Positions 15,973 through 57,854 of a DNA stretch of 64,000 nt are shown piece after piece (position 1 is the stretch's first letter; each line of letters begins with the position of its first letter). This DNA comes from Callorhinchus milii (Eukaryota): the NCBI RefSeq assembly GCF_018977255.1, contig NW_024704742.1, positions 92,258,001-92,322,000 of the forward strand, written 5' to 3'. The position numbers were made by a program, and so were the translations under genes. A model generated the notes under the pieces. That model saw nothing but the letters and a program-made list of their open reading frames with translations. It had not been told where the DNA came from and did not search any database.

Positions 15973-16318
15973 TGCTAAGCAGCACAGCCCCACATCAGAA
16001 ATAAGATGTCGGGCTTACTGCCAACCATGCTCTATGTTGTGCTCTTTCCGCTAAAGCTTTGCAGAAATCAAAATGTTAGGGCGACTCAATGTTTCACTCG
16101 GGCCAGTAAAAGAGACTAAGCGGAGGAATAGCCACACACACACACATACACACATAGGGGTATGACTCTGTACGGAGACACGTGCTCACGTTTAACCCAG
16201 GGCACAAACTATAAAACGTGTAAGTTTTTGAACAAAGCAAACTGATTGAGATATATGATGGTTGGGGCCACGGTGTTATCAGCTGATTCTGAATGTTCCT
16301 CGAATGAGCTGCCGGGGC

Positions 16319-16651
16319 TCACCGACCCCTCGATACAGCCACTGCAGCCTGAAGCTGGCGATGGAGCATTGCTGTCACCCACTGGTGTCCTCTCGCTTGT
16401 GGACTGCAGACGACAGTTTCTGGGAAAGATCCAGATTTGCTGAAGTCTGCTGTCTCTTGGTCTATGCCCTGATCTTTAAGCAGCTTGACTAGAAAGTCGA
16501 TATATTTCATCGCCAACCGAAGGATTTCGTTTTTGCTCAGCTTCTTGTCTGGAGGGTGGGTCGGGACAAGTTTTCTCAGCTCAGCAAAGGCGCTGTTTAC
16601 GTTCTGCTGCCTCCACCTCTCTCTGGTGTTTGTAAAGACCTTTCTGGTCAT
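16319..16651 (-). CDS. TAL2: T-cell acute lymphocytic leukemia protein 2 (class II bHLH); 110 aa as assembled, with a probable frameshift in the tail
   Basis: [58 protein letters not shown] closely matches human TAL2; same strand and downstream of FKTN as in human 9q31; splice acceptor ttttgccacattacag 14 nt upstream of the ATG (exon starts at 16665). Confidence 0.95.
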
Positions 16652-18606
16652 CTTCTGTGGTATCCCTGTAATGTGGCAAAACACGAACAATCTAAGCTCA
16701 GGTCATTTCAGGACTTTACCTATTATGTGATTACAACCCATTCTCTCTTTTTCTCAGGTATCTAGTGTTTCAGATTAAGTCAGCTTCCAGTTTTTGTTTG
16801 CTGAAGCATTTCAGCATTTTGTGGCAGAAGGAACAATGGTAATAATTAAGGATTGTGGTATTTTTTTGAATGCATTTTGTTGTATATTATGTCATAATAT
16901 TATTATATTTTATATGTAAAAAAATGCTTTTTAACAAATGACTAGTTTTGCTTACTGTAACCTAGTGATCTTGTTTATTGATCAATGGACAATACTCCCC
17001 AACAGAGATCTGCTCTGTAAGAATACATTTTACAGATATTAGCTGAATTATTAAAGAGCCTTTTTTTTACAATTCTCTTTATCACTGTAGACATTCCGAG
17101 ATAACTGTTTACAGGTGCTTAAGGTTTCTGAAGGTGACGATTTGCTTGCTAATCTCTGTCCTCTGTTCTAGTAGGGAGTCTGGTAAGATCAACCACTGTA
17201 ACTATTATAACTTATCTGATGTTTATATCCCCCTCCCCGCTCAAAAATATCACTTATATTTAATGGATGTCTCTGAAGACGGAGTCTATGATTGTATAAT
17301 GTTCAAAATCAACAAAATCAATCTATTTTTTTTCAAAAAACTAAAATGCTGTATATATAAATATTTATTTATGAAAAAAATTGAAAATGTTCAATCAATC
17401 CCAAAACTGACAGTGCATTGAAAGAAAATGTCATTGTTGAAAATTCCAGTTGAAAATTGTATGACAGAAGTATTTGCGATGGCAACCTTTGACACTTGCA
17501 GAATGTGAGGCTGTATCTATTTATACATCTATTTATTTATAATAATAATCTTATAATAATAATCCTTACATTTGATGTAGATCCTTATCACATTGTTGAG
17601 ACGTCTCAAAGTGCTTCACAGAATATACCTTAAAGTGAATTGACTGTATATATTGAGGGCGAAATGTATATATGCAACTGCCGTGTTTTGCCCACAAAAT
17701 AGTCAATCCACTTTACAGTGTTTTCTGTGAAGCGTTTTGAGACTCTTAATGATGTGATAAGACCCTATATCAAATGCAAGGATTAGTATCATTATTATCT
17801 GGTGCACTAACCATTATTTATTCCTCTGTCTGAGACATGTATGATACAGGAGCATGGAATAATTACACTTAGAATAAGGAAATGTGTTGGATAAGTTACT
17901 GTTGGTTTGAGGGGACAGCCATGACATCAGGAAGTGATTCTCAGCATCTCTAATACATTCCCTGAAGCATTGTTGTTTTGTGCAATCATGAACAGAACCA
18001 AATTCATTCCCTCCACGACTTCATTTGTGGAAGCATTTCAGGGTGAGTAGATCGCACAGGTGATGAGCCGGTGGGTAGTTAAAGGTAACAGAGATGCAAC
18101 ATCACAATGTAATAGACAACTGAGAGTCTCATAATGGGAAAAAAATCAGTATTCTTGCAATAAGATCTTTACGGCAATAAAATGATCAGAAAATACAGTG
18201 GTGTGCTGTACCTTGCATATACTGTCACCATCAAATACATCAAGATTGAATATAACAATGTCCCGACCACAGAATGGTGGTGTAAGTTTAAACAGTTAAT
18301 GGTACGACAAGATAATTAACCCAAAATTATCCTGACTGCATCATTTGATTACTTATTTAATCGAAAAATAAATAATCCAGAGCAAGAAAAATTGGCATTT
18401 TTTGTCTTAAAAAAAATCTTGGCCATAGGCAAGACAAAAGAGAAGAAACCAAGTTATAGGGACCTATCTGGTAAGGTATGATATTACTGCGTTTACACTT
18501 ATGCTGAACACTCATGGGGTCCACATTCCTACCCTATACCCTATACTTGCAATGCATTTTGTCGATATTAACAAAATTACCATCTGAATTCAAAATGATC
18601 CCTTAC

Positions 18607-18755
18607 CTGTTTCACGAAAGTGCTGGGACGTCAACGGTTTGTATCAGGAATATGCGTGAAGGGAGGAGAAGCCACTGAAAGGTCCGAGTCTGTGAGCTGT
18701 ATGGTTTTTGTGAGCTGCTAAGACCGAGATACCCAGATCCTCTGCAGATTCGTGC
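18607..18755 (-). other. TAL2: Probable non-coding first exon of TAL2
   Basis: Strong donor CAG|GTAAGG at 18607/18606, no ATG in the segment, TATAAA upstream; 5' end estimated from TATA spacing. Confidence 0.6.
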
Positions 18756-18779
18756 TATGGGTTTGAGGGGGTTCCTGTC

Positions 18780-18820
18780 ATTTATAGTGTGGCTGTGCCT
18801 TTGTTTGACGTGTGTCACTA
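18780..18820 (-). promoter_or_regulatory. Candidate TAL2 core promoter (TATA box, SOX-like AACAAAG, CRE half-site)
   Basis: Minus strand reads gtgacacacgtcaaacaaaggcacagccacacTATAAAtgac, with TATAAA at 18786-18781. Confidence 0.55.
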
Positions 18821-37715: not shown

Positions 37716-37929
37716 TCAGTACACCTGGATAACATCATCCCACTCACTGATAGGCCAAACTCCATATTCGTGCACATTAGATGGCGAGGTCTTCCAATCC
37801 CAACTAGTCACAGGAATTGCCCAGTTCCTGCCATAGTTTGCTTCCACATACGCAAGCGTTTCACACGGGACTCCTACTTTCATTTCTAGGAATTCAGTCC
37901 AGCAGTGGGTAAATTTGGGAAACATATAC
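37716..37929 (-). CDS. FKTN: Fukutin, coding exon 9 (last)
   Basis: [33 protein letters not shown]...[13 protein letters not shown]; acceptor ttttgtag; 214 nt. Confidence 0.96.
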
Positions 37930-38548
37930 CTACAAAACAAATCAAAATGAAAAAGATCAGCAAACAGTACTTGTAGTGATAGTTGAAATAAGTATTTTAT
38001 AGTTTCGATTACCCAATACATACAGGAATTTCTAACCTGATTACCTAATTAGGAAACAGAGGTTAGGCTCCTTCTGGTGAATGAAGTACATCACTCAAGT
38101 CATGCTGGCTCAAGGAAATTTGGATCCGAAAGTATATTGTCCCGGAGCAGAATTCCTGTGAGTCGGCATAACATTCCGATTTCCTTATTAACAAAATCAT
38201 TAAAACATCTACCCAGATTATATCCAAGTATTTGCACAGTACTGGCATATTTATTAATCATTGGCCACTGAACCAAATTAATTTGATTTGAAACTGCACA
38301 CTAGCTATCAATGGTCTACTCAGTATAAACCGGACAAAGGCTGCAACAGACATCAGGAAGTTCACCTTGGATTCTCTTTTAAAACAAAATCTGATCCAAC
38401 CTCTCAAACTATAAATATTTAAACATAAATATCTAATTTACCGTAAAATCTGGAATGCACAAGAATGACAAACTCCATTATAACATGACGTTTTAATGTT
38501 TTAAAAAATGCAAGGATTATAGTTTGGATCAATAAACGGAGAACCTGT

Positions 38549-38878
38549 GGAGTCCTGTAGCTCAGTGGTTAGAGCACTCGCTTTGCAAGTGAGAGACCTG
38601 AGTTCAATTCCAGGCAGAGGGCGAAACCTTGGGCAAGTTTCCTTACTCCACACAGAGCCTAATAATAAACCCTCCAAAAACAAAAAAAACAATAATAAAT
38701 TGGTCATTTTCAATCTACGACTGTTTGTGGGACATTGCTGTGCGCAATTGGCTGCCGCGTTCGCCCACAAAAAATATACAGTCAATTCACTTTACAGTGT
38801 GTTCTCTGAAGCGCTTTGGGACGTCCTCCCGACGTGAAAAGCGCTATATCAAATGCAAGGATTATTATTATTATTATT
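38549..38878 (+). mobile_element. tRNA(Ala)-like Deu-domain SINE, young full-length copy
   Basis: A box TAGCTCAGTGG, TGC loop in a ctcgc/gtgag stem, B box GTTCAATTCC, Deu domain, (tta)n tail; near-identical to copies at 43276, 46981, 56345 and 57905. Confidence 0.93.
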
Positions 38879-39951
38879 AACCTGCCTTACAAAAGGGCCA
38901 CATTATAGGACACCAGTCAGTGCTTCTGTGTCATCATGCTGCTGATTTATGTCACAGTTGACATCACTGCACTGTGTATGCTCTTGTGGTAATCGCTCTC
39001 GCAAACGTTCAAAGTGGTTCATGGGAGAGTGCTAAAGCTGGGAGGTCTTCTTAGTCCATCCACTACAGGCAGGAAACGCTCTGAGACACTACCCTGCGTG
39101 AAGGGCGCTATATATGTGCAAGTTGTTGTTGTTGAAACCAACCAGTCAGCACAGGAAGCCGAAGGTGTAATACACTTCCAATACAATGTTAAGAGTTGAA
39201 GGTACACCCATGTTATATACAACCCTACCATATACTGAAGTACAATATAACAAGATCAGACTGTAATTGGATGCCTGCCTCCATAAGTTCACCTACAAAT
39301 AGTGTCAATATGCAGTCAATCTTGTGAAACGCTTTGAGTTGTCCTCCCAATGTGAAAAGGGTTATTATCAAATGTATAAATTATACAGTTTATTTTAATA
39401 AGACCAGTCATGTATAAAGTAATTTTTATATTTGTCAGATGATGCAATCATCATGATTTTGGTACAGTGGCTCGATTGCTTTGGGAAAAATTATTTTTTG
39501 TTTCCCTCAGTTCACTAGAGTGCAGTGCTAACGTTTAATGCTGCAACAGTAATTATGTTGTCTTACCAAACAATATACCATTCTAGTTAACAATGAGCTC
39601 TGCAAGTTATGTTTACTGCTTTTGTTTGTTTAAATTTATATTTATATATTAGTTCTTGTACAGAATACATTTCACTCATTGGTAAAAATCCAATGAAAGA
39701 TTTCTATAAACTGGAAGTGCAACTGTAGACCTGTAAGGATTGTGCACAATAGGCACAAAGATTCATCGGACAAATTAAATGAAGTATTCTCCACCACCCC
39801 ACATCCCCATATAGCTTACTAAAAAAGTGCCTTTTTAATAAGCTAAATTATACAATAGGAGAAAGATGATCAACTGCTTGGAAAGTAGTCTTTTTAAAAA
39901 AAAAACTTATAATAAGACTGTCAACTCAAATACATTCTATTAGTAACTTAC

Positions 39952-40076
39952 TTAAATTTCTTGCCAGTTTTAGCCTGGGTTCCTCCATTCCACATGTTGT
40001 GCATCTCTTCATAAAAGAAGAATATATCAAGCTTCACATCATGAGCCTGGAAGGAAAGCTCCAGGCTATCTTCCAC
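39952..40076 (-). CDS. FKTN: Fukutin, coding exon 8
   Basis: [42 protein letters not shown]; cag| and |gtaagt; 125 nt. Confidence 0.95.
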
Positions 40077-40173
40077 CTGCAATGTACAGAAGAAAAAGTT
40101 CCGTCTAGGCTAATTTTGCATCGATTTATAGATCATTACAAATTTTAAAACACAAAGAATACATTTTATTCAC

Positions 40174-40307
40174 CTTCCCAAACTTGTGTTTAAGTGGAAG
40201 TCCTGCCTTCTGGAATGCCGGGATAATTTCAGGTGTGTAGTTCTTTATCAAAATTCCCAGGTCCACATCTTTACTGTAGGGGATGATACTGCATTGTCTG
40301 AACCACC
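40174..40307 (-). CDS. FKTN: Fukutin, coding exon 7 (LicD-type DxD motif)
   Basis: [45 protein letters not shown]; tag| and |gtgaat; 134 nt. Confidence 0.95.
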
Positions 40308-40357
40308 CTAAACAAGGCAGAGATGAGAATTTAGGACAGCAGTTGCTATTGCTCCAC

Positions 40358-43260
40358 TGTTGAAATACATTGACTATCAACAACAACAACAACAAGATTC
40401 CATTTATAGAGCGCCTTTCACGTCGGGAGGAAAGCTCCAGGCTGTCTTCCACCTGCAATGTACCAAGGTGCTGTACAGTTGGGTCAGGACCCGAGCAAGG
40501 GGGAAATGGTCGTGGGGAGGGAAGGGAGGGAGCGAAGAGGGGGTAGAGAGTCGAGAGGGGAGCTGAAGGCTCGGTCAAAGAGAAAGGTCAAGAGACCGGC
40601 CTTGAAAGAGGAAAGGGAGGAAGCAAGGCAAAGGCACTGGGGTATAGAGTTCCAGAGCATAGGGGCTGAAGGCCCGGCCACCGATGGTAGGGCGGTTGGG
40701 GCGGGGGATGTGGAGCAGACCGGAGCCAGAGGAACGGAGGGTACGGGCAGGTAGGTAGGGGGATAGTAGGTCAGAGAGGTAGGAGGGAGCAAGGCCGTGA
40801 ATGGCCTTGTAGGTGAGGATGAGGATCTTGAATTCGATCCTCTGGGGGATGGGGAGCCAGTGGAGGCGAGCGAGGGTGGGAGTGATGTGGTCCTGGTGCG
40901 GGACAGTGCACGAGCTGCAGAGTTCTGAATGACCTGCAGCTTGTGGAGGGAGGTCCCGGGAAGGCCGGCGAGGAGAGAGTTCCCATAATCCAGCCTTGAG
41001 GTGATAAAGGCGTGGACCAGAGTTTCAGCAGCGTGAGGGGTGAGGTAGTGCCGTAGTCTGGCGATGTTCCGGAGGTGATGGAAGGCGGTGCCAGTTGTGG
41101 TGCGGATGTGAGGGAGAAAGGACAGCTCAGGGTCGAACAGAGCATCGAGGTTCCTGACTGGCTTTGAGAGGTGGAGAGTGCAGCCTTGGATGCTGATGGT
41201 GTCAGCGCCTGAGGTGCGGAGGCGCTGACGTGAGCCAATCAGGAGGGCCTCAGTTTTACGCACGTTGAGCTGAAGAAAGTTGTCTCTCGTCCAGGACTCC
41301 ATGTCGGACAGGCAGGCTGTCAGGACATCGGTGGTCGTGGAGTTGAGGGTAGAAGAGGAAAGGTAGAGTTGGGTGTCATCCGCATACATGTGGAAGTTAA
41401 CCCCATGTCTGTGGATGATGTCACCAAGGGGGAGCATATAGAGGGTGAAGAGGAGGGGACCGAGGACAGAGCCCTGAGGGATACCGCACGAGACAGTGCG
41501 GGGGCCGGAGGAAAAGCCGTTTGTGGAAACAAAGTGAAGACGGTGGGAGAGGTACGACCTAAACCACTCAAGGACAGGGCCTTGAAGGTTGAGGTGGGAG
41601 GACAAGCGGTGGAGGAGGATAGCGTGGTCGACCGTATCGAATGCTGCCGATAGGTCGAGGAGGACGAGGAGGCAGAGGGAGCCCTGGTCGCAGATGGTCA
41701 GGATGTCATTGGTGACCTTGACCAGGGCAGTTTCTGTGCTATGAGCAGCACGGAAACCCGACTGAAGGGATACATTGGTATATTTCAAACAGCAACCGAA
41801 TGTTCCAGAAGGTTTGATAGTTAAATGGTTAAAAGTAGCTTTGCTGGATGGGTTGAGGTTAGCTTCTGATTACATTTCATATTTTCCTGGGAAGATATTC
41901 ACTCCGCTGAGATAATGAGCATAGATGTAAGAATAAAGGACCACAGAAAGAAAAGGCTGCAGTCTCAGACACCTGCCTATCACAAGGCTGGGAAACAAGC
42001 AGACTGTGGAAGGCTGTCCAGAAGTTGTCCATATGTCTCCCTCTGCAAAGCAGCCTGCGAAGGCTGGGGGCTATCTCTGTGACAAGGGGAGATGGAGTTA
42101 GAAATACATAAAAGATGTAACTTTGAAATAGTTGGGAGTTGTGTAGAGGGTCAGCACACTTCCCAGTGGAATTGATGTCAACTCTAATGTATCTATGTAT
42201 ACGTACAGGGGTGAGGGAATTTAGCTCCAGGAAGAAAGTGATCATTAAAAATAAGAGGCGGAATAGCGGGTAATATGGTTTTGGTTCTGTTTGCTAGGCA
42301 GAGAAGTAATAACAGTAATAGTGGTTGGTCCAGGGTAACCCAGAAGTCAGTTTAGGCAGTACGAGTTAGGTCCTGGGCTAATAGCTAGTTATGTCTGTTG
42401 AGTTTACCGGAGCCACTCTCTGCAATTTTGTGTACCATTGTCGGTTGAATATTGTTGTGTATGACTGGTTGGGTCTGAGGGTGTACCGAACCCCAGTCCC
42501 TGTTTAATGTTGGTATTACGAGTGTCAGTTGTCTGAGGGGTATGTCCAGGGGCTGATCTCTCCAGTGTATGTCAAGGTGTGATCCCAGGCCTACTGTTTA
42601 GCCTGGAGTACGAAACAGTGCCTGGATACTGTCGTCCCTGTATTGTCAGTACTACTGTTTGGTCTGGAGTACGGAGCAGTGTCTGGAATCATGTTTGTTT
42701 CGTATATCTGTGTTGTATTATTATTGTGTTGTATGTCATAAAGTTAATTATAGATCGTGAGCTTTACTGTTTCTTTTATAAGATAAACACTATACTCTTA
42801 CCACCGCCTGTCGAATTATTAACAAATTGACGAGCCAGCCAGGAGGGCGTGTATCCCGAGTCATTGTGATCGGTTGATCAGGCCGGGAACCCATAGGGTA
42901 AACCGCTCTAAGATAACAAATGTGTGTGTTGGGGGATTTGTTGTTTTACTGTTCTCCAGGTCAAGTCTGGAAAAGTTATTGCTTCACCACTTGCAAACTG
43001 GGTTTTGCTAGATCTCCAGTTCAAGTCTGGAAAAGTGTTACAGTTTGTCGTGAGTCCAGTGGTTTGAGCCAGTTCAAGTCTGGAAACCCGTTTACTCAAT
43101 TTTGTTTTATTGTCTTTCTTCATTGTTATCTCTCATTGCTTGCCAGTTCGAGTCTGGGAGGTACTTTAGCGTTGTATACATTATTATTTCATTATCATTG
43201 TATTGCTATTTGATATGTTTTTGCTGTTCACTGTTTTATAAATATTGTTGTTTCATTATG
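40358..43260 (+). mobile_element. ERV-like remnant: 5' LTR (interrupted by the L2), tRNA-Arg PBS and repetitive leader
   Basis: ...ttaaca (42824), aat, then TGACGAGCCAGCCAGGAG (42828-42845), which is 17/18 complementary to the 3' end of vertebrate tRNA-Arg(ACG); four ccagktcragtctgg repeats at 42955-43160. The left boundary (TGTTGA at 40358) is inferred; 41801 is an alternative. Confidence 0.6.
40378..41770 (-). mobile_element. L2 LINE, young and 5'-truncated (RT domain plus 3' end)
   Basis: ORF 40484..41788: [49 protein letters not shown]; (caa)n tail. Confidence 0.95.
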
Positions 43261-43275
43261 TATTAGATACACGTG

Positions 43276-43597
43276 GAGTCCTGTAGCTCAGTGGTTAGAG
43301 CACTCGCTTTGCAAGTGAGAGACCTGAGTTCAATTCCAGGTCAGGGCGAAACCTTGGGCAAGTTTCCTTACTCCACACAGAGCCTAATAATAATCCCTCC
43401 AAAAAAACAAAACAATAATAAATTGGTCATTTTCAATCTACGACTGTTTGTGGGACATTGCTGTGCGCAATTGGCTGCCGCGTTCGCCCACAAATATACA
43501 GTCAATTCACTTTACAGTGTGTTCTGTGAAGCGCTTTGGGACGTCCTCCCGACGTGAAAAGCGCTATATCAAATGCAAGGATTATTATTATTATTAT
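43276..43597 (+). mobile_element. tRNA-derived SINE, young full-length copy
   Basis: Same family as 38549-38878. Confidence 0.93.
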
Positions 43598-44090
43598 ATT
43601 ACTATTGGTTTTTCTGACTATAATTGTGTTTGCTATAATAAACCTTATACCGTGATAACTGTACTATGACCAAATTACTTACAAATTGGCTGCTTTTGCA
43701 GCTAATGATCATGTCCAAGGTACAAATGAATCCCTGGTAAAACTAGTAGTGCAAGCATTTTGAAGCAGTAGCACGAATAGATAAAATTTCTATTTCCACC
43801 CCACGTGATGGTCACCAACGATGATATTAACCAACTAAAGTGTTTAAAGAAATGGGAGATTGTCTGTTTCAGTATTTCAGCAATATTCAAAGCCAGTAGG
43901 GAAGGATAGAGGGAACACCCACTGAACTAATATTAAAAATTTCTGTGGCCATACTGTTTATGTTAATCATGATATTATTGGTAATGATGTGCTGTAATTA
44001 CAGATACTAATATTAGTTGAAAGGATTGATTTGGCGGCTGAGGTAAAAGGGAATCATGAAGATTCTGATGGTGATAGTGGGCCTGTGCTG

Positions 44091-44232
<142 letters not shown>

Positions 44233-44969
44233 AATCACTAAATGTCAAGTACTATGAAACCAATGGTGATACTTAGAACAATACAAAACTGGTGGAATAG
44301 CTCGTAGATGGATAATATGGGTGGTTTAATTTGCAGTGGATTATTGCTGGACCCACTCTGGAAGGCATGCAGACGCAAAAAACTCAACACATTGAAAACC
44401 ACATTCCCTAATCCTGCTAGATATGTTGATTGTAAGTATTTTCTTCAACTCTAACCTTTTTACCTCGTTACCTGTGTTCACGTCTTTGTCTTTTGCCCTT
44501 CTACTCTTTCCCTTTGGCATGTCAATTCCACTCCAGTGTATTTTATCTAACCTTTTCTTTGGAGTCTCCATTGATATCCCTCTACAGACATAAGTACCCA
44601 CTACTTCAAATAGCCATGCATCTCATGTTTCTCAAAATGCACATAACCGCCCACCTCCCACACTAACGTAAGTGCTATTAGAAAAAATAAGTTTTTAAAT
44701 CAATTTTTCTCATCCATATAGTCAAATTACTGATTTCAGTTCCCTACAGTCTCTGTTCACATTTGTTGTTGTTAGTACTTGATCTTTGAACACAGCAATA
44801 ACTTGTCCAGAGACTGAGACAAACTGCTCACACACTAAATGTGGCGCTCCAAACACTACAGTTCTCTTTTATCAAAGCCCGCAACACACTTATTGTATAG
44901 TTGTGCATTTTTCGGTAAACATGAACAATTCAGAAGGAATATGTACAAATGTGGATTTGTGTACTTCAC

Positions 44970-45099
44970 CCAAACAAGTTCCACTGCTGAGCCAGAACGG
45001 TATCCTGAGGCCATTTAATGTTTTAACAGCCAACTGAAGCAAATTCTTAGCCTTTTTACGAAACTCTGTGGCTTCTTGAGATGTGTCATCAGGGTAAAG
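44970..45099 (-). CDS. FKTN: Fukutin, coding exon 6
   Basis: [44 protein letters not shown]; tag| and |gtgaag; 130 nt. Confidence 0.95.
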
Positions 45100-45960
45100 C
45101 TACAGTGAAAAAATAATCATACGCAGGATATAAATATACCTCCTGCAATTCACAAATAGCTTTTACAAATGCAAATAGTACTTCAGGCCTAGAATGCAAA
45201 GTCATCAAACACCAAAGAAAGCACATAATATTGGGATGCACCAAGATTCAGTGCCAAATAAATCAACAAAAAACATACAATTCTAGTGACAATAATAAAC
45301 CAAATTAAGGTTATAGTAAAATAGGAGTATGGAAGTCATACAATTGGACAAAGCTGGACTTTTTTTAAGAATAAGGTGCATATAAAGGAAGCATTCTATT
45401 TAATACGGAGTCACACTCCACCTTTTGCACTGAGCCAGAAGACTCCACCACCAAATGTGTAACATGAATGGGACTCAGACACTATAAATCAAACCACTAA
45501 ATTCTGGCTTCAAGAGCAGTCCAATTCACACCGATCAGTATAAATGTGATTTGCAGTGAATTCCACTGGGCTAATCCCACTGAGCTCCGTTCAAAGTGCA
45601 GATGATCCAGGGATTATTTTTTCCTTATTGCAGTACCCAATAAAAGGTAGAAGAACCAGAGATCTGCTGCTCAAGCTCAGCTTTTGGCCTCCATGACTAG
45701 CACTGGATTTAGGCAGTAAAAAAAAACCTAGTTTCACGCATTTAGGTTAACATAACCCTGGACCTCTTGGACACTGAAATGTAATGGCTACGGCTGGTTC
45801 GTGCAATGTGAAATGTCACAGCCACCACTTGAGCATCACTTGCAGTGAACTGGAGACCCAGTATAAAAGCATATACTGACACGTCAGTAACTATTCTATT
45901 TTCATTATTCTGCTGATTAATCATTTGTTTGTAAAAAATACTTGATAGCTAGAGACTAAC

Positions 45961-46093
45961 CTGATAAAATGCTCGAGCTTCTTTATATCTGCACTCAATA
46001 AACTTGGACTGAGAAACTTCATCCAAAAAATGGGTTATTTTCTTAGGAATGTGAATTTCTAATCCATCAATTGAAGCTAGACGCAGCTCTGGT
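45961..46093 (-). CDS. FKTN: Fukutin, coding exon 5
   Basis: [44 protein letters not shown]; cag| and |gttagt; 133 nt. Confidence 0.95.
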
Positions 46094-46365
46094 CTGTAAA
46101 ACATTTAATATTAGCACAACACAGAATGTTCCCTTCCCTGTTAGGAATAAAGAATGACATTGTATTACGCAGTTATAGAAATAACAACAAATTATATTTA
46201 TACAGTGCTTTTCATGAAGGACGTCCCGAGGTGCTGATACTTGATAGCCATAGAGAAGAAAAAAGCCAAAAAAGGAAAAGGAGAAGCAAAAAAAATACAT
46301 CTTACGGTGCCACAACCAAATGGAGGGCATAACAACATTTGTTCATGTGTGATTCATTAGGTCAT

Positions 46366-46920
46366 TACAACAACAACAAATTGCATTTGTACAGCACCCT
46401 TCACGTCAGGAGGACGTCCCAAGGTGCTGGAGAGGCCCAGGTTTTCACCCAAGCTGGGTGTTGAGTTTGGGAGGGATGGAGGCCAAGCAAATAAGGGTTG
46501 GGTGTGGGGGGTAGATAAAAAACCGAAGGCACAGTTAATGAGAAAGGTCTTGAGACAGACATTGAATGAGTCGAGGGATGGGGCAAGGTGAAGGGACTCC
46601 AGATGGAGTTCCGGTGAGTAGTGGCAAACAAGCTGAAAGTCCGACCACATGTAGTGGAACGGTCAGGGCGGGAGACAGCAAACAGGCCAGTGACTGCTGA
46701 CCAGAGGGAAGGTTGGGGGCTGGGCGTTGATAGCCTTTCAGCAGGTCACAAAGTTACAGTGGGGTAAGATCGTGGAGGGATTTAAAAGAGGATCTTGAAC
46801 TCGTTCCTCTGGGAGACAGGGAGCTAGTGGAGCTGGGTGAGGATGGCGGTGATAGGCTCTCAGAGCCCAGGGTGGGAGACGACACAAGTTACAGAGTTCC
46901 TGATGCAAATTTCTTGATGT
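46366..46920 (-). mobile_element. L2 LINE 3' end, degenerate
   Basis: (caa)n tail; SFNVCLKTFLINCAF; aggatcttgaac (FKIL) motif. Confidence 0.75.
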
Positions 46921-46980
46921 GCGTCAGAGGAAATAACCTTATTAGTTTTACTGCATTGTCTTTAGTTTCTCTCTGTTAAT

Positions 46981-47306
46981 AATAATAATAATAATATTAA
47001 TCCTTGCATTTGATACAGCGCTTCTCACGTCAGGAGGAGGTCCCAAATGCTTCACAGAACACACTGTAAAGTGAATTGACTGTATATTTGTGGACGAACG
47101 CGGCAGCCAATTGCGCACAGCAATGTCCCACAAACAGTCGTAGATTGAAAATGATCAATTTATTATTGTTTTTGGTTTTGGAGGGATTATTATTAGGCTC
47201 TGTGTGAAGTAAGGAAACTTGCCCAAGGTTTCGCCCTCTGCCTGGAATTGAACTCAGGTCTCTCACTTGCAAAGCGAGTGCTCTAACCACTGAGCTACAG
47301 GACTCC
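46981..47306 (-). mobile_element. tRNA-derived SINE, young full-length copy
   Basis: Reverse complement of the 38549 family. Confidence 0.93.
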
Positions 47307-47724
47307 ACCGTTCTTCAAATTTTAAAATTACAGTATTTAAATAGTATTTCTAAAAATATATTTAACCTAATGAATAGAATTTTGTCTGTTCCCTCAAAAA
47401 CAGCAACCTAAATGGCACCTGGGGATGTAAAGTGCATCTCCTGCAGTGAACGTCACATACCTCATGCCAACCCACAAGACCCTAACATCAATGTAGTCTA
47501 CTTTTGGGGAACAGTTCCCACAGATCAGTATAATTTACTTCCAATTACCAGATGGAATCCCTATTTGTGAATCAGAGATTTTATTAATAGCCCAGTTTTA
47601 GACCTTATGGTCTAAACAAGATTATGAATGAAACAAAGATTACAGGCATTACATCTAATTTCTGACAACAGATCACAAACCCTATGTCTTCATTAAATGT
47701 CTGAAATAGTTTCTTTCCACTTAC

Positions 47725-48002
47725 TTGTCATAGGCTCCCGGGTGATGTCCAAAATGGAGCTTTCGAAAAGGCACAAATTTTCTGTCTGCATTTTGTTTGA
47801 GCCGTAGTTGCCCATGCCAAAGGTAGTTCCCACTCCGCTCATAAAATACCACAAGGTGGATGGCATGATTCTGCATCTTAAAGATGCAATGCAGTGGAAT
47901 TTCTGTGCCAGAAAGACCATCCATTCCTGCTAGGCGTGGATCCTTCCCATGCAGCTCCATCCACTCAAATCCTTCCTTCTCGGCTGCTTTCTTTAGGGAT
48001 GC
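47725..48002 (-). CDS. FKTN: Fukutin, coding exon 4
   Basis: [14 protein letters not shown]...[19 protein letters not shown]...[19 protein letters not shown]...[10 protein letters not shown]; aag| and |gtaagt; 278 nt. Confidence 0.96.
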
Positions 48003-48682
48003 CTTAAAGGATTGAAAGCAAAATAACAATTTGGAATAGACAAAATATTAAATATAAAAAACCATGGTGATCAATTAGGTAAAAAGCACTTGTGAAAAAA
48101 TATACATGGCCCAAGTGAACACATTTCTAACTCATAAGAAATATGTCCTCTATATGTGAAATTGTATATACACATTTTCATTTAAGGAGAAAACAGGCTA
48201 GAGTATTGGCTATCTTTATACACTAAGAATAATAATAGTAATAATATTTGCAGTTGATATTGTGCCTCATCACATCATTGAGACGTCTCAAAATGCTTCA
48301 CAGGATTTACTGTAAAACAGATCAACTGTGTATTTGTTCGCAAAACAGGACAGCTAGTCTGTGCATAGCAATGTTCCACACACAGCCAGGGAGTTACCAA
48401 TCTTATTTGGAAGATTGTTGGCCAGTACACCAGGAGAAACTCCCTTCGCTTCGCAAATAGTGCAATTAACATCCACCTGAACAGGCAGATAGGACCTCGG
48501 TTTAACGTCTCATCCGAAGGACGGCAGCGATTCTCCACTGCATTTTTAAAAAGGGGAAACTTTTTTAAGTAGAATAGCAATTACATACAACATACAATGG
48601 GAAACAGTTTGATAAGAGTTAAAGTTAAGTTCTTGGTTCATGTAGGAATTTTATTAGACAACACCTATAAAACTGTACTTAC

Positions 48683-48880
48683 ATTGTTTTTCCAAAATTT
48701 ATCCAAGAGTGCAAATGTAGTAAACTCTCTGGGAAAGCACAGGTATTTGCACTTCAGCCCACTGCTGCTCGTACTTTGCTGACGTTGATTTTCATTCAGC
48801 CGTCCCAAAACCAAAGGATCAATGAGATATAAAGGAACATTTTGGATAGAGACCATTTTGAGGAACTTTTTGACCACTTT
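48683..48880 (-). CDS. FKTN: Fukutin, coding exon 3
   Basis: KVVKKFLKMVSIQNVPLYLIDPLVL...CKYLCFPREFTTFALLDKFWKNN; cag| and |gtaagt; 198 nt. Confidence 0.95.
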
Positions 48881-50038
48881 CTGGTAAGAATAAATAGATT
48901 AAACACACTATTGTGCATTAAAAATCAAATGAAGATACACTGTATAATTCTGCAATAAATATAGTTGGGCTTTGTTTTAAATTAACAGAAATGCACACAG
49001 GATTGATAGACAATTACCTTAACACAGACAAAGGAATGAGTGGCACTCTGCTTGTTATACGAATGCTGGGAAAAAAAGCAGAAGTCCAGCACCTCTTCTC
49101 TCGAGTTATTTATCTTACTTTTCACTACATCAACTTCTATCTCACGACCAGAACTAATTATTTTTTAATACTCTTTTGGATTCTCAAAGAAATCCATTTT
49201 TTTGTAATACTTATTATTCACTGTACCAGTCTACTATAACTCCAGTATGAAGACTCTTTAAAATACCTTTAGGTCATGTCTTCCTTAGCAATGCAATCTT
49301 GTCTCCTGGTATACAAATGCTTCTCTGCATCTGCCCCATCATTTCCCTTCATCCCTTTTTTAACATCTAGTCATGTTTGCTTTAATATTTTCCAGTCAAA
49401 ACACACAAACGCTTTATTTTTTCTATATCTTAAATGATCTTGTGCTAATTCCATTTGATTTTGAGTACTGTGCTCGGATAACACTGCCAGCAATGTAGTA
49501 CAATATTAAGATTATAGATCTGTTATGCAGGGTTTATACTGCCAGAAGTAAAGCTGCCTTTACAGTGATGTGCATTCTGCACTTATATTGCCCATTTTGC
49601 TATCACGTGGACTCAAAGAAAATATAGATTTTAATGTTCAATGCACACAGCCCATGAAGTGTGTGCTTCAACATTATAATAAAATAATAATCCTTGCATT
49701 TGATATTAAGGAGACAATCCATATACATACTTACTTGGTATTTGTTCTGTTTCAAATATAGTATTTTCTACAATTTATAGACAGATCACTTCTAATATGA
49801 ACCAGGATTTCCATTACCATGGCATCAACAGGGTTAGATGTACTATCATCACCCGGATATGCACACCATGAGGACAGCAGATAGCATGTGCTGGGCTTGT
49901 ATCTAAGATTTTGTGATGAGTTTAATTTAAAATCTTAGAACTAGTTTCCACTAAAAATGCCTTACAAATTTTATTTTTAGTTCTTAAAATTCTTCCTGTA
50001 AAGGAGAAACATAGTACAGTTTTGAATGGTATACATAC

Positions 50039-50098
50039 CCAGTGCACACTGTCTTCCACATCGTAACTTGCTTTCAAATCAGAAAGATTGGACCCATT
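50039..50098 (-). CDS. FKTN: Fukutin, coding exon 2 (stem region)
   Basis: 60-nt phase-0 exon NGSNLSDLKASYDVEDSVHW between ttctttag| and |gtatgt; same size and NG...W ends as the human exon. Confidence 0.88.
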
Positions 50099-50964
50099 CT
50101 AAAGAAAAACAAGTGGTACACAAATTACCAAATTTGATAGATCTAAACAGATACCATAGCAATACAGGGACCAAAAGTGTCAAATGCTGAGGTACTAGGG
50201 TAAAATATACACATCCTTTTGGCCCTATACTTTTTCAGTATTTGACAACTGGTACTCTTGAGGCTTTCGGTGACCAATATGTATCCCACAGCAGTCTCTA
50301 GTGGCAGAAATAATTCTAGCACCGTGGTTTGCGTCATATTTATTATTGGTTTATGCCACATATACTGTTTTGCTTCAAGTCCTGCATCTGAGAACAATGG
50401 TATTTTGAACTATTGTAGTATGCACATTCAAAATTGTGCTGTTATTTTCTACCTTCCTATGTAAAAATCAAAGGTACAGTTGTGATAAGTCACAAATCAT
50501 AAACTGAATGAAAAGGCAGGGTAATGAACGGACTCTGAATTATAAACATAATTTTATCATCAAATTGTTTTGAAAAATCTCCCTCTCTCTTTGTTATTTC
50601 CTATACTGAGTATCGTATCAGGCCACAAGGGTGGAAAAGTGCCATGCTTTCTTAGTGGTGCTGTTTGCAAGACTGACTCTTCAGTGATTTCTTCTCTGTA
50701 AGGAAAAAATATCTGACCACTGCTGAGTACATTTCCATAATAGGGCAAATTCATTTTATTCAAAATGATGTACCGTTTAGTTATGCTGATCCCTCCTACA
50801 ACCAGGACAACATACAGCAATCTTTAAACTAAATTTAACTCATGTCCTAGCAAATTAGTGCTATTCCTACCACAGAGGAACTTTGTTTCAGCACACCTGG
50901 CTCGGACCAATAGTATAGCAACCATGTTACAAAGAAACTTAAAAAAAAGGCCAACTTCCTGGCA

Positions 50965-51255
50965 GCAACAACAACAACAACAACAAGATTCCATTTATAA
51001 AGCGCCTTTCACGTCAGGAGGACGTCCCAAGGCGCTGCACAGTTGGGTCATGACCCGAGGAGGGGGGAAATGGTCAGGGTGAGGGGAGGGAGGGAGCGAG
51101 GAGGGGGAAGAGAGTCGAGAGGGGAGCTGAAGGCTCGGTCAAAGAGAAAGGTTTTGAGACCGGCCTTGAAGGAGGAAAGGGAGGAGGCGGCGAAGGCACT
51201 GGGGGATGGAGTTCCAGAGCCTCGGGGCTGAGAGGCTGAAGGCCCGACCACCGAT
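50965..51255 (-). mobile_element. L2 LINE 3' end (same young family as 40378-41770)
   Basis: [18 protein letters not shown] and (caa)n tail. Confidence 0.9.
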
Positions 51256-51968
51256 GATGTTCTTTTCTGGGTGTTGAACACATGCGCTCTATATGCACAA
51301 AGAATCGCTGACGTCACTTTCTGCATGTTATGGGCAAGAAACACTGTATTAATCTATGCAAAAGCGCAGCATGTATAAAGTGACATCAGACATGCTCCTA
51401 CCCCACAAGAAGCGTCGTCAACAACAACTAAAAGCCAGCTGTTTTTAGCACAGAAAGCCAACTATCCAGGTGTACTGCACTTCTGGTTAGGGCAGGGACG
51501 CAGTAGACCTGCAGAGGTTAAGTGAGGCAGAGGTTTATCAAAATGTGCTATAAGGGGTTTCCCCATATTAGTCCTACCGTTTAAAAATGCATAGCTTTTA
51601 AGATACATAGCTTTTCAGCCAGATGGAAATTAGTAAAACTTAGAAACCCTTTCATTTTGCCCATAAAATATAGTCAATCAATTTTACAGTATATTCTGTG
51701 AAGTGCTTGGAGTCGTCCCGATGACGTGATAAGGCACTATTATCAGATGCAAGGATTATAATTATTTTTCGGTAGAAAACAGCCATTTTGTTGAACCACT
51801 AAAAATAACATTTATTTTTGAAAAAGGCTATCGCATGATAGTGTCACAAGTGACAAACAACAACTTAACGACAACAACAACTCGGATTTATATAGCGCCC
51901 TCCACGCCGGACAGCGTCTCAGAGCGCTTGGCAAAGGCAAAGGCAAAAATTGACAGTATAATACGTAC

Positions 51969-52073
51969 CTTTGATACAAAATATTGTTTATAGTAGTAAA
52001 GCTGAAATAATAGAAAAACTGAACTGGTCACAATGAGAAGGGTCAATACGATGGTCTTATTGATTCTGGGCAT
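51969..52073 (-). CDS. FKTN: Fukutin, coding exon 1 (N-terminal TM anchor); exon begins at 52102
   Basis: [35 protein letters not shown] resembles human MSRINKNVVLALL...LYYYK; donor |gtacgt; acceptor ttttcctag. Spliced CDS is 1377 nt (458 aa). Confidence 0.96.
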
Positions 52074-54159: not shown

Positions 54160-54830
54160 AACAACAACTTTCATTTATACAGCGCCCCTCACACAGTGTA
54201 GCACGTCACCGAGCCGGGGAAGGTGACCGTAGGCGCGATCGAATAGGAAGGTCTTCATGCGTGACCTGAAGATGGGGAAGGAAGAGGCAATTTGGAGAGA
54301 TAGAGAAAGAGTGTTCCAGAATTTTGTGGTGTAGTGCCTGAAAGCGCATTCACCAGTAGAGGAACAGTAGAGGGACATGTAGAAGGCTGGAGCCAGTCGA
54401 GTGGAGGCAGCAGGTTGTCGGTTGGGCAGGTCGGAGAAATAGGGAGGTGCCAGGGCATGAAGGGATTTGAAAACGAGTGTGAGGATCTTGAAATCGATCC
54501 ATTCGGTGATAGGGAGCCAGTGGAGCCTGGCTAGAACTGGTGTGATGGGGTTACAGAGTTTAGTGCCGGTGAGTATGCGGGCGGCAGAGTTTTGGATCAG
54601 CTGGATCCTGTGCACGGTGGAGCTGGAGAGACTGGCAAAGCGGGCGTTTGAGAAGTCAAATCGGGAGGTGACGAATGCATGGATGAGTGTTTCATCTGCG
54701 TCTGGGGTAAGGTATGGTCGGAGCAGGCAATGTGGGAGGTGGAGGAAGGTGGTCCTGGTCAGGGACCGGATGCGGGTAAGGAAAGACAGCCATCGGTCAA
54801 ACCTGATGCCTAGGTTCAGTAAGTCAAGCC
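54160..54830 (-). mobile_element. L2 LINE RT C-terminus and 3' end
   Basis: ORF 54175..54867: ETLIHAFVTSRFDFSN, IQNSAARILT, LHWLPI, FKIL. Confidence 0.9.
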
Positions 54831-55084
54831 AGATATATACCATACACAGATCTGTATTTTTAACCAAATATCTCTCGCTGTCATACCCACTTCCACAAAA
54901 GCAGCCAACTGACTGTCTCTGTTATTATCCAGTCTTAAGAGTGTCTCTCACAATCCCCTTTCCACCACCTACTCACTCCACAACAACAAATTACATTTGT
55001 ATAGTGTCTTTCAGGCCAGGAGGATGTCTCAAGGCAATCCCATCCATCCTCCCATCCATCCATCCTCCACTCAGAGCATCCTCT

Positions 55085-55550: not shown

Positions 55551-56345
55551 ATAAGACGTAGGGGCAGGAGTAGGCCATTTGGCCCCTCGAGCCTGCCCCG
55601 CCATTTAATAATATCATGACTGATCTTCTAACCTAATTCCATTTACCCGCCCTATCCCCATATCCCTTAATCCCTCTATCCTTTAGAAATCTATCAACCT
55701 CAGTCTTGAATATGTTCAAGGACTGAGCATCCACAGCCTTCTGGGGTAGAGAATTCCACAAATTCACTACCCTCTGAGTGAAGAAATGTTTCTTCAGCTC
55801 AGTTCGAAAAGGCTGACCCTTAATCTTGAGACTATGACCCCTAGTTTTAGATTCTCCAACCAGGGAAAACAGTCTCTCACTATCTATCCTGTCAAGACCC
55901 TTAAGAATCTTATAGGTTTCTATAAGATCACCTCTAATTCTTCTATATTCTTGAGAGTATAGGCCTAGTGTACTCAGCCTATCCTCATTGGTCAACCCCC
56001 TCATCCCAGGAACCAACCTCGCGAATCTACGCTTCACCCCCTCTAAGGCGAGTATGTCCTTTCTTAAATAAGGAGACCAAAACTGCACACAGTATTCTAG
56101 GTGCGGTCTCACCAAGGCCTTATATAACTGCAGCAAGATTTCCCTACTTTTGTACTCTAACCGTTTTGCAACGAACGCCAAAATGGCATTAGCTTCCTAG
56201 TTGCTTACTGTACCTCCATACTAAGTTTCTGTGACTGGTGTACAAGTACACCCAAATCCCTCTGAACTTGTCTCTCCCCCTCTAGAAAATAATCCACTTT
56301 TCTATTTTTACTACCGAGGTGAATAACTTCACACTTCCCCACGTT
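55551..56345 (-). mobile_element. CR1 LINE 3' portion
   Basis: ORF 55633..56181: LYKALVRPHLEYCVQFWSP, RGDLIETYKIL, FFTQRVVNLWNSLP. Confidence 0.93.
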
Positions 56346-57153: not shown

Positions 57154-57280
57154 CCTCTCGGTGTCTCCACAGTAACCACAGCAGCCGCTCATATCGCGAT
57201 ATGCGGAACGACTAACACGTGACATCACTGCGGCCGCCGCGAACCAAACTATCGCGAGATCTCATAGCCCCGCCCCCACC
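57154..57280 (-). promoter_or_regulatory. FKTN: Probable FKTN non-coding exon 1 and CpG promoter
   Basis: Donor AGG|GTGAGA at 57154/57153; local CpG cluster; TATCGCGAGA (57250-57259), CACGTG (57216-57221), GC box gccccgccccc (~57267). Confidence 0.7.
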
Positions 57281-57829
57281 ACACACAGCCCAACACAGCT
57301 CCCACAGCCCGCCCCCCCACACACACACAGCCCCGCCCCCCCCCCCCACACACACACAACCCCGCCCCTCCCCACAGCCCCAACACAGCTCCCACAGCCC
57401 GCCCCCCCACAGCCCCGCCCCCTCCCCCACAGCCCCGCCCCCCACACACACACAGCCCCCAACACCCCCCCCCCACACAACAGCCCCCAACACCCCCCCC
57501 AACACACACAGCCCCCCAACACCCCCCCACACACAGCCCCCACCAAGCCCCCAACACCCTCCCCCACACACACAGCCCCCAACACCCCCCCCAACACACA
57601 CACAGCCCCAACACCCCCCCCCCACACACACAGCCCCCAACACCCCCCCACACAAGCCCCCACCACAGCCCCCAACACCCCCCCCACACACACACAGCCC
57701 CCCCCACCCCCACCAACACACACACAGCCCCCAACACCCCCCACACACACACAGCCCCCAACACCCCCCACACACACAGCCCCCAACACCCCCCCACACA
57801 CACAGCCCAAACCCCCCCAACACACACAC
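57270..57829. repeat. C-rich minisatellite-like tract (cacacagcccccaacacccccc units) running into an assembly gap
   Basis: Seen directly. Confidence 0.9.
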
Positions 57830-57854
57830 NNNNNNNNNNNNNNNNNNNNNNNNN
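57830..57854. other. Assembly gap (25 N)
   Basis: Run of n. Confidence 1.

What the first reader, a model, noticed from the sequence alone, without database searches (positions are those of the whole stretch)
16209..16450. TAL2 tail looks frameshifted; the hidden frame holds the TAL2-like tail plus a TAL1-like motif
Seen: as assembled, the ORF ends ...[15 protein letters not shown]...SRGR*. Adding one base in the TTTCCC run (~16422-16427) gives [50 protein letters not shown]...LHVL* (stop 16211-16209, 147 aa). From recalled sequences, this aligns without gaps to human TAL2 GLFPQGPHLPGLEDRTLLENYQVPSP (G, FP, L, RT, PSP shared). It then continues into a motif resembling TAL1 LSPNSSCGSSLDGAASPDSYTEE, which human TAL2 lacks. 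Inference: either an assembly indel hides a longer ancestral-type TAL2, or a real lineage-specific frameshift replaced the C-terminus.
Basis: partly seen in the sequence, partly recalled or inferred. Interest (0 to 1): 0.72.

Follow-up and report, generated by a model that had tools for sequence, protein, structure and literature searches.

The report
Assembly error truncates elephant-shark TAL2
This genome sequence lacks one DNA letter that other sequence data from the species carry, most likely an assembly error; with it the TAL2 transcription-factor gene encodes the already catalogued 147-residue protein shared with sharks and rays, whose tail keeps a short motif also found in its sister protein TAL1.

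Summary
The window's TAL2 frame gives 110 aa; the neighbouring frame holds the real tail. All 5 public runs that cover the site (4 DNA-like, 1 spliced) carry one extra base at 16411-16413, not at 16422-16427. With it the gene gives exactly the 147-aa Callorhinchus milii protein already in UniRef/RefSeq. Of 14 shark and ray proteins tested, 13 match the hidden-frame tail and none clearly matches the assembled tail. A lineage-specific frameshift is rejected. An assembly deletion is most likely (0.93); an allele private to the sequenced animal is not excluded. The site is a synonymous C/T polymorphism, which may have favoured the error. The 'TAL1-like' Ser/Pro motif is real: a profile of cartilaginous-fish TAL2 tails scores 110 of 110 TAL1 tails against 4 of 2200 shuffles. 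It is partly kept in bony-fish TAL2 and eroded in tetrapods, so it is likely ancestral. A conserved terminal hydrophobic segment was seen only in cartilaginous-fish TAL2. Ordinary gene, useful annotation fix, modest evolutionary footnote.

The parts
18607..18793 (-). non-coding first exon of TAL2 (5' end given only by the end of one contig)
   Evidence: X5 and X6 contigs join 18606 to 16664, intron ends GT..AG; donor GTAAGG and acceptor TTACAG, only a 3-codon upstream ORF
16666..18606 (-). 1941-base intron in the 5' UTR; holds a high-copy repeat at about 17550-17800
   Evidence: joint table and depth table
16478..16651 (-). start codon and bHLH domain, residues 1-58
   Evidence: PF00010; 51-54 of 58 identical to other TAL2, 48-49 to TAL1/LYL1
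16411..16413 (-). site of the missing base: third position of Val80, a synonymous C/T site on the coding strand
   Evidence: G put in behind 16411 in X1, X3, X4, X5; A put in behind 16412 in X2; both give P0003 exactly
16319..16411 (-). assembled 30-residue tail and stop; artefactual
   Evidence: no match above shuffle level to 13 shark and ray tails (207-892 of 1000 shuffles reach it)
16209..16412 (-). true tail, residues 81-147 and stop
   Evidence: identical to P0003 residues 81-147; conserved in sharks and rays
16296..16361 (-). Ser/Pro motif shared with TAL1 (residues 98-119, SP-x-S-x-C ... SP-x-S-x-x-EE)
16212..16259 (-). terminal hydrophobic segment, residues 132-147, seen only in cartilaginous-fish TAL2; helix in a low-confidence model
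37830..52073 (-). FKTN exons upstream on the same strand (synteny that supports TAL2 orthology)
   Evidence: tblastn of stored FKTN proteins

Best explanation
The window lacks one base at 16411-16413 that all five covering public runs carry, most likely through an assembly error, and with that base the gene encodes the catalogued 147-residue TAL2 shared with sharks and rays. Shown: the extra base, the spliced transcript that carries it, identity to the database protein, conservation of the tail, and homology of the Ser/Pro motif to TAL1. Inferred: the base was dropped, or left uncorrected, at a site where two alleles differ (GTC/GTT, both Val). The assembled letters are what remains when either allele loses one letter of a doublet. 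Inferred function: an ordinary class II bHLH factor that binds DNA with an E protein. Its disordered tail likely carries an inherited phosphorylation/turnover motif and a terminal amphipathic helix that would bind a partner.
For: Runs: X1, X3, X4, X5 have G behind 16411 and X2 has A behind 16412; that is 5 of 5 covering the site, from 2 studies; X6 does not cover it. The X5 contig is spliced and carries the base. P0003 (UniRef100_V9LDY9, XP_007890745.1) is the 147-aa form of the same species and is reproduced exactly. 13 of 14 elasmobranch proteins match the hidden tail with 0 of 1000 shuffles reaching the score. The terminal motif is in 22 stored proteins from 17 named species. The tree puts P0003 among TAL2, separated from TAL1/LYL1 at 100/99. 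Short indels causing frameshifts are the commonest error in long-read consensus (PMC8081667, passages seen).
Against: No reads known to come from the sequenced animal were seen. All runs were contigs, which hide minor alleles. The second allele rests on one contig of depth 6.6 (X2). A toy likelihood model did not favour the collapse: with a 50/50 mix the deleted form won 1, 3 and 0 of 40 trials under three error models (0 of 40 when homozygous). So the polymorphism allows the error but does not predict it. P0012 (Mobula birostris) and P0279 (whale shark isoform X2) lack the terminal motif; P0012 scored 34 of 1000 against the assembled tail. The function of the tail motifs is untested.
Confidence: 0.93

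Rival explanations
1. The deletion is a real, rare allele of the sequenced animal (probably heterozygous). It would give a protein with an intact bHLH and a 30-residue nonsense tail.
For: The window has its own variants relative to all four DNA-like runs (for example 16694). The stop lies in the last exon seen, so the message would likely escape decay (inference). The toy model rarely produced the deletion.
Against: 0 of 5 covering runs show it, and the other database record of the species is intact. The lost base coincides with a synonymous polymorphism, which an independent mutation need not do. The tail has been conserved across holocephalans, sharks and rays.
Confidence: 0.06
2. A fixed, lineage-specific frameshift replaced the C-terminus in elephant shark or chimaeras.
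For: The 110-aa product is listed in NCBI, UniRef and nr, but it derives from this same sequence.
Against: 5 of 5 covering runs labelled as the same organism and the 147-aa record are intact. The assembled tail matches no orthologue above shuffle level except one marginal case.
Confidence: 0.005
3. The genome really lacks the base, and ribosomal frameshifting or insertional RNA editing restores the tail.
For: A spliced contig carries the base (X5).
Against: Unspliced, intron-spanning contigs X1-X4 carry it too, so no recoding is needed.
Confidence: 0.003

Closest known systems
Callorhinchus milii TAL2-like protein, UniRef100_V9LDY9 / XP_007890745.1 (P0003, 147 aa)
   Same: Identical to the window's gene once the missing base is counted.
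   Different: The window's own 110-aa product (P0001) is also deposited in NCBI, UniRef and nr and is the faulty version.
Shark and ray TAL2 (e.g. XP_067838366.1 Heptranchias, XP_041041473.1 Carcharodon, XP_032873957.1 Amblyraja; 143-150 aa)
   Same: Same layout and tail, 69-84% identical overall, same terminal segment.
   Different: Rays have a shortened Ser/Pro motif (5 of 22 proteins miss the two-SP pattern) and two extra terminal residues.
Human TAL2, NP_005412.1 (P0250, 108 aa)
   Same: bHLH 51 of 58 identical; ungapped register over residues 74-99; upstream non-coding exon, as described for mouse and human P1 (PMC3784441, passages); FKTN upstream.
   Different: Ends shortly after the first SP; lacks the rest of the motif and the terminal segment.
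TAL1/SCL C-terminal Ser/Pro region (human P0230, skate P0132)
   Same: 22-residue ungapped match, 9-12 identities in 7 of 7 TAL1 proteins shown. The second SP serine of human TAL1 lies 32 residues from the end.
   Different: TAL1 has a long N-terminus and a different ending. That this region is TAL1's Notch/Skp2/CHIP degradation signal around Ser300 is recalled from Nie et al. 2008, which could not be read; reviews confirm only that TAL1 is an Skp2/CHIP substrate.

Membership tests
TAL2 (SCL-family class II bHLH) | SCL-type bHLH domain starting at the N-terminus, no long N-terminal region | tested here: met
   PF00010 from residue 1; spliced 5' UTR has in-frame stops upstream of the ATG; feature as described in PMC3784441 (passages)
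TAL2 (SCL-family class II bHLH) | groups with TAL2, not TAL1/LYL1, in a tree | tested here: met
   22-protein IQ-TREE, split 100/99, midpoint root only
TAL2 (SCL-family class II bHLH) | lies downstream of FKTN on the same strand | tested here: met
   FKTN exons at 37830-52073 (-); mammalian and bird FKTN-TAL2 read-through models show the same order
TAL2 (SCL-family class II bHLH) | binds E-boxes as a heterodimer with E proteins | not testable with these tools
   inferred from bHLH identity only
TAL1 | long N-terminal region and TAL1-type bHLH | tested here: not met
   starts at the bHLH; 48-49 of 58 to TAL1 against 51-54 to TAL2; tree
TAL1 C-terminal Ser/Pro motif | sequence homology of the motif | tested here: met
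   profile of 15 cartilaginous-fish TAL2 tails: 110 of 110 TAL1 tails at 9 bits or more, 4 of 2200 shuffles; LYL1 0 of 23; other TAL2 18 of 119
TAL1 C-terminal Ser/Pro motif | phosphorylation-dependent Skp2/CHIP degradation (mapping to this motif recalled) | not testable with these tools
   primary paper not held; searches found no usable text on Ser300
lineage-specific frameshift / novel C-terminus | indel fixed in the species and new frame conserved | tested here: not met

The most novel reading that the evidence does not exclude
Cartilaginous-fish TAL2 is the last TAL2 to keep the full ancestral SCL-family tail: a working TAL1-type phospho-degron plus a terminal amphipathic helix that binds a partner or an export receptor. 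Bony vertebrates trimmed this tail stepwise (half the motif in fish and coelacanth, almost none in tetrapods), which would have freed TAL2 from the turnover control that TAL1 retains.
Probability: 0.2. Interest if true: 0.4.

Novelty: already known. Interest (0 to 1): 0.14.

Why it matters
Practical: a faulty 110-aa TAL2 from this sequence is in public protein sets beside the correct 147-aa one, so comparative work on an important outgroup genome could report a false lineage-specific tail. Evolutionary: the corrected tail shows that a TAL1 motif was also part of ancestral TAL2 and was worn away in bony vertebrates. It also flags a conserved terminal segment in sharks, rays and this chimaera for which my few searches turned up no description. 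Neither point changes a major idea.

Tried and rejected
Whole-genome search: no genome is held for this window, so no check for a second copy elsewhere in the assembly. No run was on record as RNA; X5 and X6 are taken as RNA because they are spliced. X6 has no cover over 16229-16482, which says nothing. Insertion in the TTTCCC run was rejected. dN/dS per frame was not run: no orthologous DNA was available, only proteins. A wide search with the 67-residue tail over 1.84 billion representatives gave 3 hits: a ray TAL2 and two tandem-repeat proteins judged spurious. A word-based search with residues 95-147 found only P0003 itself and missed known shark relatives, so it is insensitive. ESM Atlas hits were all under 0.8. 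The structure model is confident only for the bHLH; the terminal helix 131-145 has pLDDT under or near 50. A first strict motif pattern matched 0 of 243 proteins because its spacing was wrong and was corrected. The first human register was off by one and was redone. Scripts stopped early; the missing parts were run. The toy simulation gave only weak support for allele collapse. PMC5632298 (passages) did not describe that mechanism, and the listing was not read further. Literature searches for TAL2 in cartilaginous fish gave nothing relevant.

Full report
What is in the sequence. On the minus strand an ATG at 16651 opens a 110-codon frame ending at 16321-16319. The first 58 residues are an SCL-family bHLH domain. 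They are 51-54 of 58 identical to three other TAL2 proteins and 48-49 of 58 to two TAL1 and one LYL1. In a 22-protein tree the protein falls among TAL2, split from TAL1/LYL1 at 100/99. FKTN exons lie upstream on the same strand at 37830-52073. The gene is TAL2.

The correct protein is already catalogued. The best non-self hit is P0003, a 147-aa Callorhinchus milii protein (UniRef100_V9LDY9, XP_007890745.1). It equals the assembled frame up to Val80 and the other frame from Arg81 to the end. Of 680 single-base insertions tried between 16330 and 16499, 6 reproduce it exactly, all at 16411-16413. The window's own 110-aa product is also deposited in NCBI, UniRef and nr, so the faulty form is in public annotation.

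Sequence runs decide between error and biology. Six of the 24 listed runs (the six with the largest share of words) were laid on the locus. Five cover the site and all five carry one extra base: G behind 16411 in X1, X3, X4 and X5, and A behind 16412 in X2. X6 does not cover it. X1-X4 run through the intron and come from one study. X5 comes from another study and is spliced, joining an upstream exon (18793-18607) across a 1941-base GT..AG intron that X6 also skips. On the coding strand the two versions are GTC and GTT, both Val, so the lost base is a synonymous polymorphic site; the second allele rests on one contig of depth 6.6. The assembled letters equal either allele minus one letter of a doublet, which suggests an error made or left unpolished where two alleles disagree. 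My toy likelihood model gave this only weak support: with a 50/50 mix the deleted form won 1, 3 and 0 of 40 trials, and never when homozygous. Short indels causing frameshifts are reported as the commonest error of long-read consensus (PMC8081667, passages); I do not know how this window was sequenced. All runs are contigs and none is known to be the sequenced animal, so a private deletion allele stays open at about 0.06.

Orthologues agree. Against the post-bHLH tails of 14 shark and ray proteins, the hidden-frame tail scores 126-253 in 13, with 0 of 1000 shuffles reaching it. The assembled tail is at shuffle level in those 13 (207-892 of 1000). The fourteenth, P0012 from Mobula birostris, leaves the family alignment at about residue 70. 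It matches neither tail convincingly (456 and 34 of 1000) and may be a gene-model artefact (inference). A whale-shark isoform, P0279, also ends differently. The terminal motif is present in 22 stored proteins from 17 named cartilaginous-fish species.

The TAL1-like motif. The recalled human sequences are correct (P0250; P0230). Residues 74-99 align without gaps to human TAL2 with 9 of 26 identities, and 0 of 1000 shuffles reach the score; the assembled frame gives 3 of 26. Residues 98-119 align without gaps to 7 of 7 TAL1 proteins shown, with 9-12 of 22 identities. A profile built only from 15 cartilaginous-fish TAL2 tails scores 9 bits or more on 110 of 110 TAL1 tails (4 of 2200 shuffles), 18 of 119 other TAL2 tails (2 of 2380) and 0 of 23 LYL1 tails (1 of 460). 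Classes were set by bHLH residues, and 19 unclassed proteins were left aside. The scores are small and the TAL1 set is highly related, so the counts are not independent. The first half of the motif (SP-x-SSC) is in 18 of 119 other TAL2 entries, among them coelacanth, gar, bowfin and paddlefish, and in 12 of 23 LYL1. The two-SP spacing is in 108 of 110 TAL1 and 17 of 22 cartilaginous-fish TAL2; the 5 misses are ray-type. The simplest reading is inheritance from the common SCL-family ancestor with erosion in bony-vertebrate TAL2; no jawless outgroup was available to root this. The second SP serine of human TAL1 is 32 residues from its end. From memory, that is Ser300 in a region needed for Notch-induced, Skp2/CHIP-dependent degradation (Nie et al. 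2008). The paper was not held, two reviews (PMC4017836 and PMC10978726, passages) confirm only that TAL1 is such a substrate, and three searches found no usable text on Ser300. The degron reading is a lead, not a result.

The terminal segment. Residues 132-147 are the most conserved part of the tail across holocephalan, sharks and rays. The pattern was found in no other stored protein, and a full-library search with the tail found only a ray TAL2 and two repeat proteins. The model shows a helix at 131-145 with pLDDT under or near 50. A partner-binding or export helix is plausible and untested. PMC3784441 (passages) describes TAL2 as a bHLH with a short, poorly conserved C-terminus and no defined domain. 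Searches for TAL2 in cartilaginous fish returned nothing relevant; the library lacks most subscription journals, and no supplements were read.

Verdict. The frameshift is most likely an assembly error at 16411-16413, and the real product is the known 147-aa TAL2. Interest 0.14; already known.

Noticed in passing
window 16583: A second synonymous polymorphism in the coding region (third position of Ala23) in runs X4 and X5.
   Followed up: partly
window 18770-18793 (-): A TATAAA lies at about 18786-18781, next to the 5' end of the spliced X5 contig (18793), followed by a 3-codon upstream ORF; likely the promoter region. An upstream non-coding exon is also described for mouse and human Tal2.
   Followed up: partly
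protein P0012 (Mobula birostris, XP_072115552.1): A TAL2-type N-terminus named 'TAL1-like' that switches to an unrelated tail at about residue 70, unlike M. hypostoma; possibly another faulty gene model.
   Followed up: no
proteins P0007, P0278, P0280, P0084: Whale shark, zebra shark and one paddlefish record of TAL2-type proteins are named TAL1 or TAL1-like in the databases; P0007, P0280 carry the TAL2 tail and P0084 groups with TAL2.
   Followed up: partly
protein P0031 (Latimeria, 175 aa): An 'uncharacterized' coelacanth protein groups with LYL1 and keeps the SP-x-SSC motif.
   Followed up: partly
window 17325-17335: Runs X3 and X4 both have one more T and two substitutions at a T8-C-A6 run in the intron; haplotype difference or a second homopolymer error.
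   Followed up: no
window 40484-41869, 54175-54921, 55633-56196: Long frames that look like LINE reverse-transcriptase remnants (family recognised from recall, not searched), one inside an FKTN intron.
   Followed up: no
window 57274-57854: C/A-rich tandem array running into a 25-base N gap, just upstream of FKTN.
   Followed up: no
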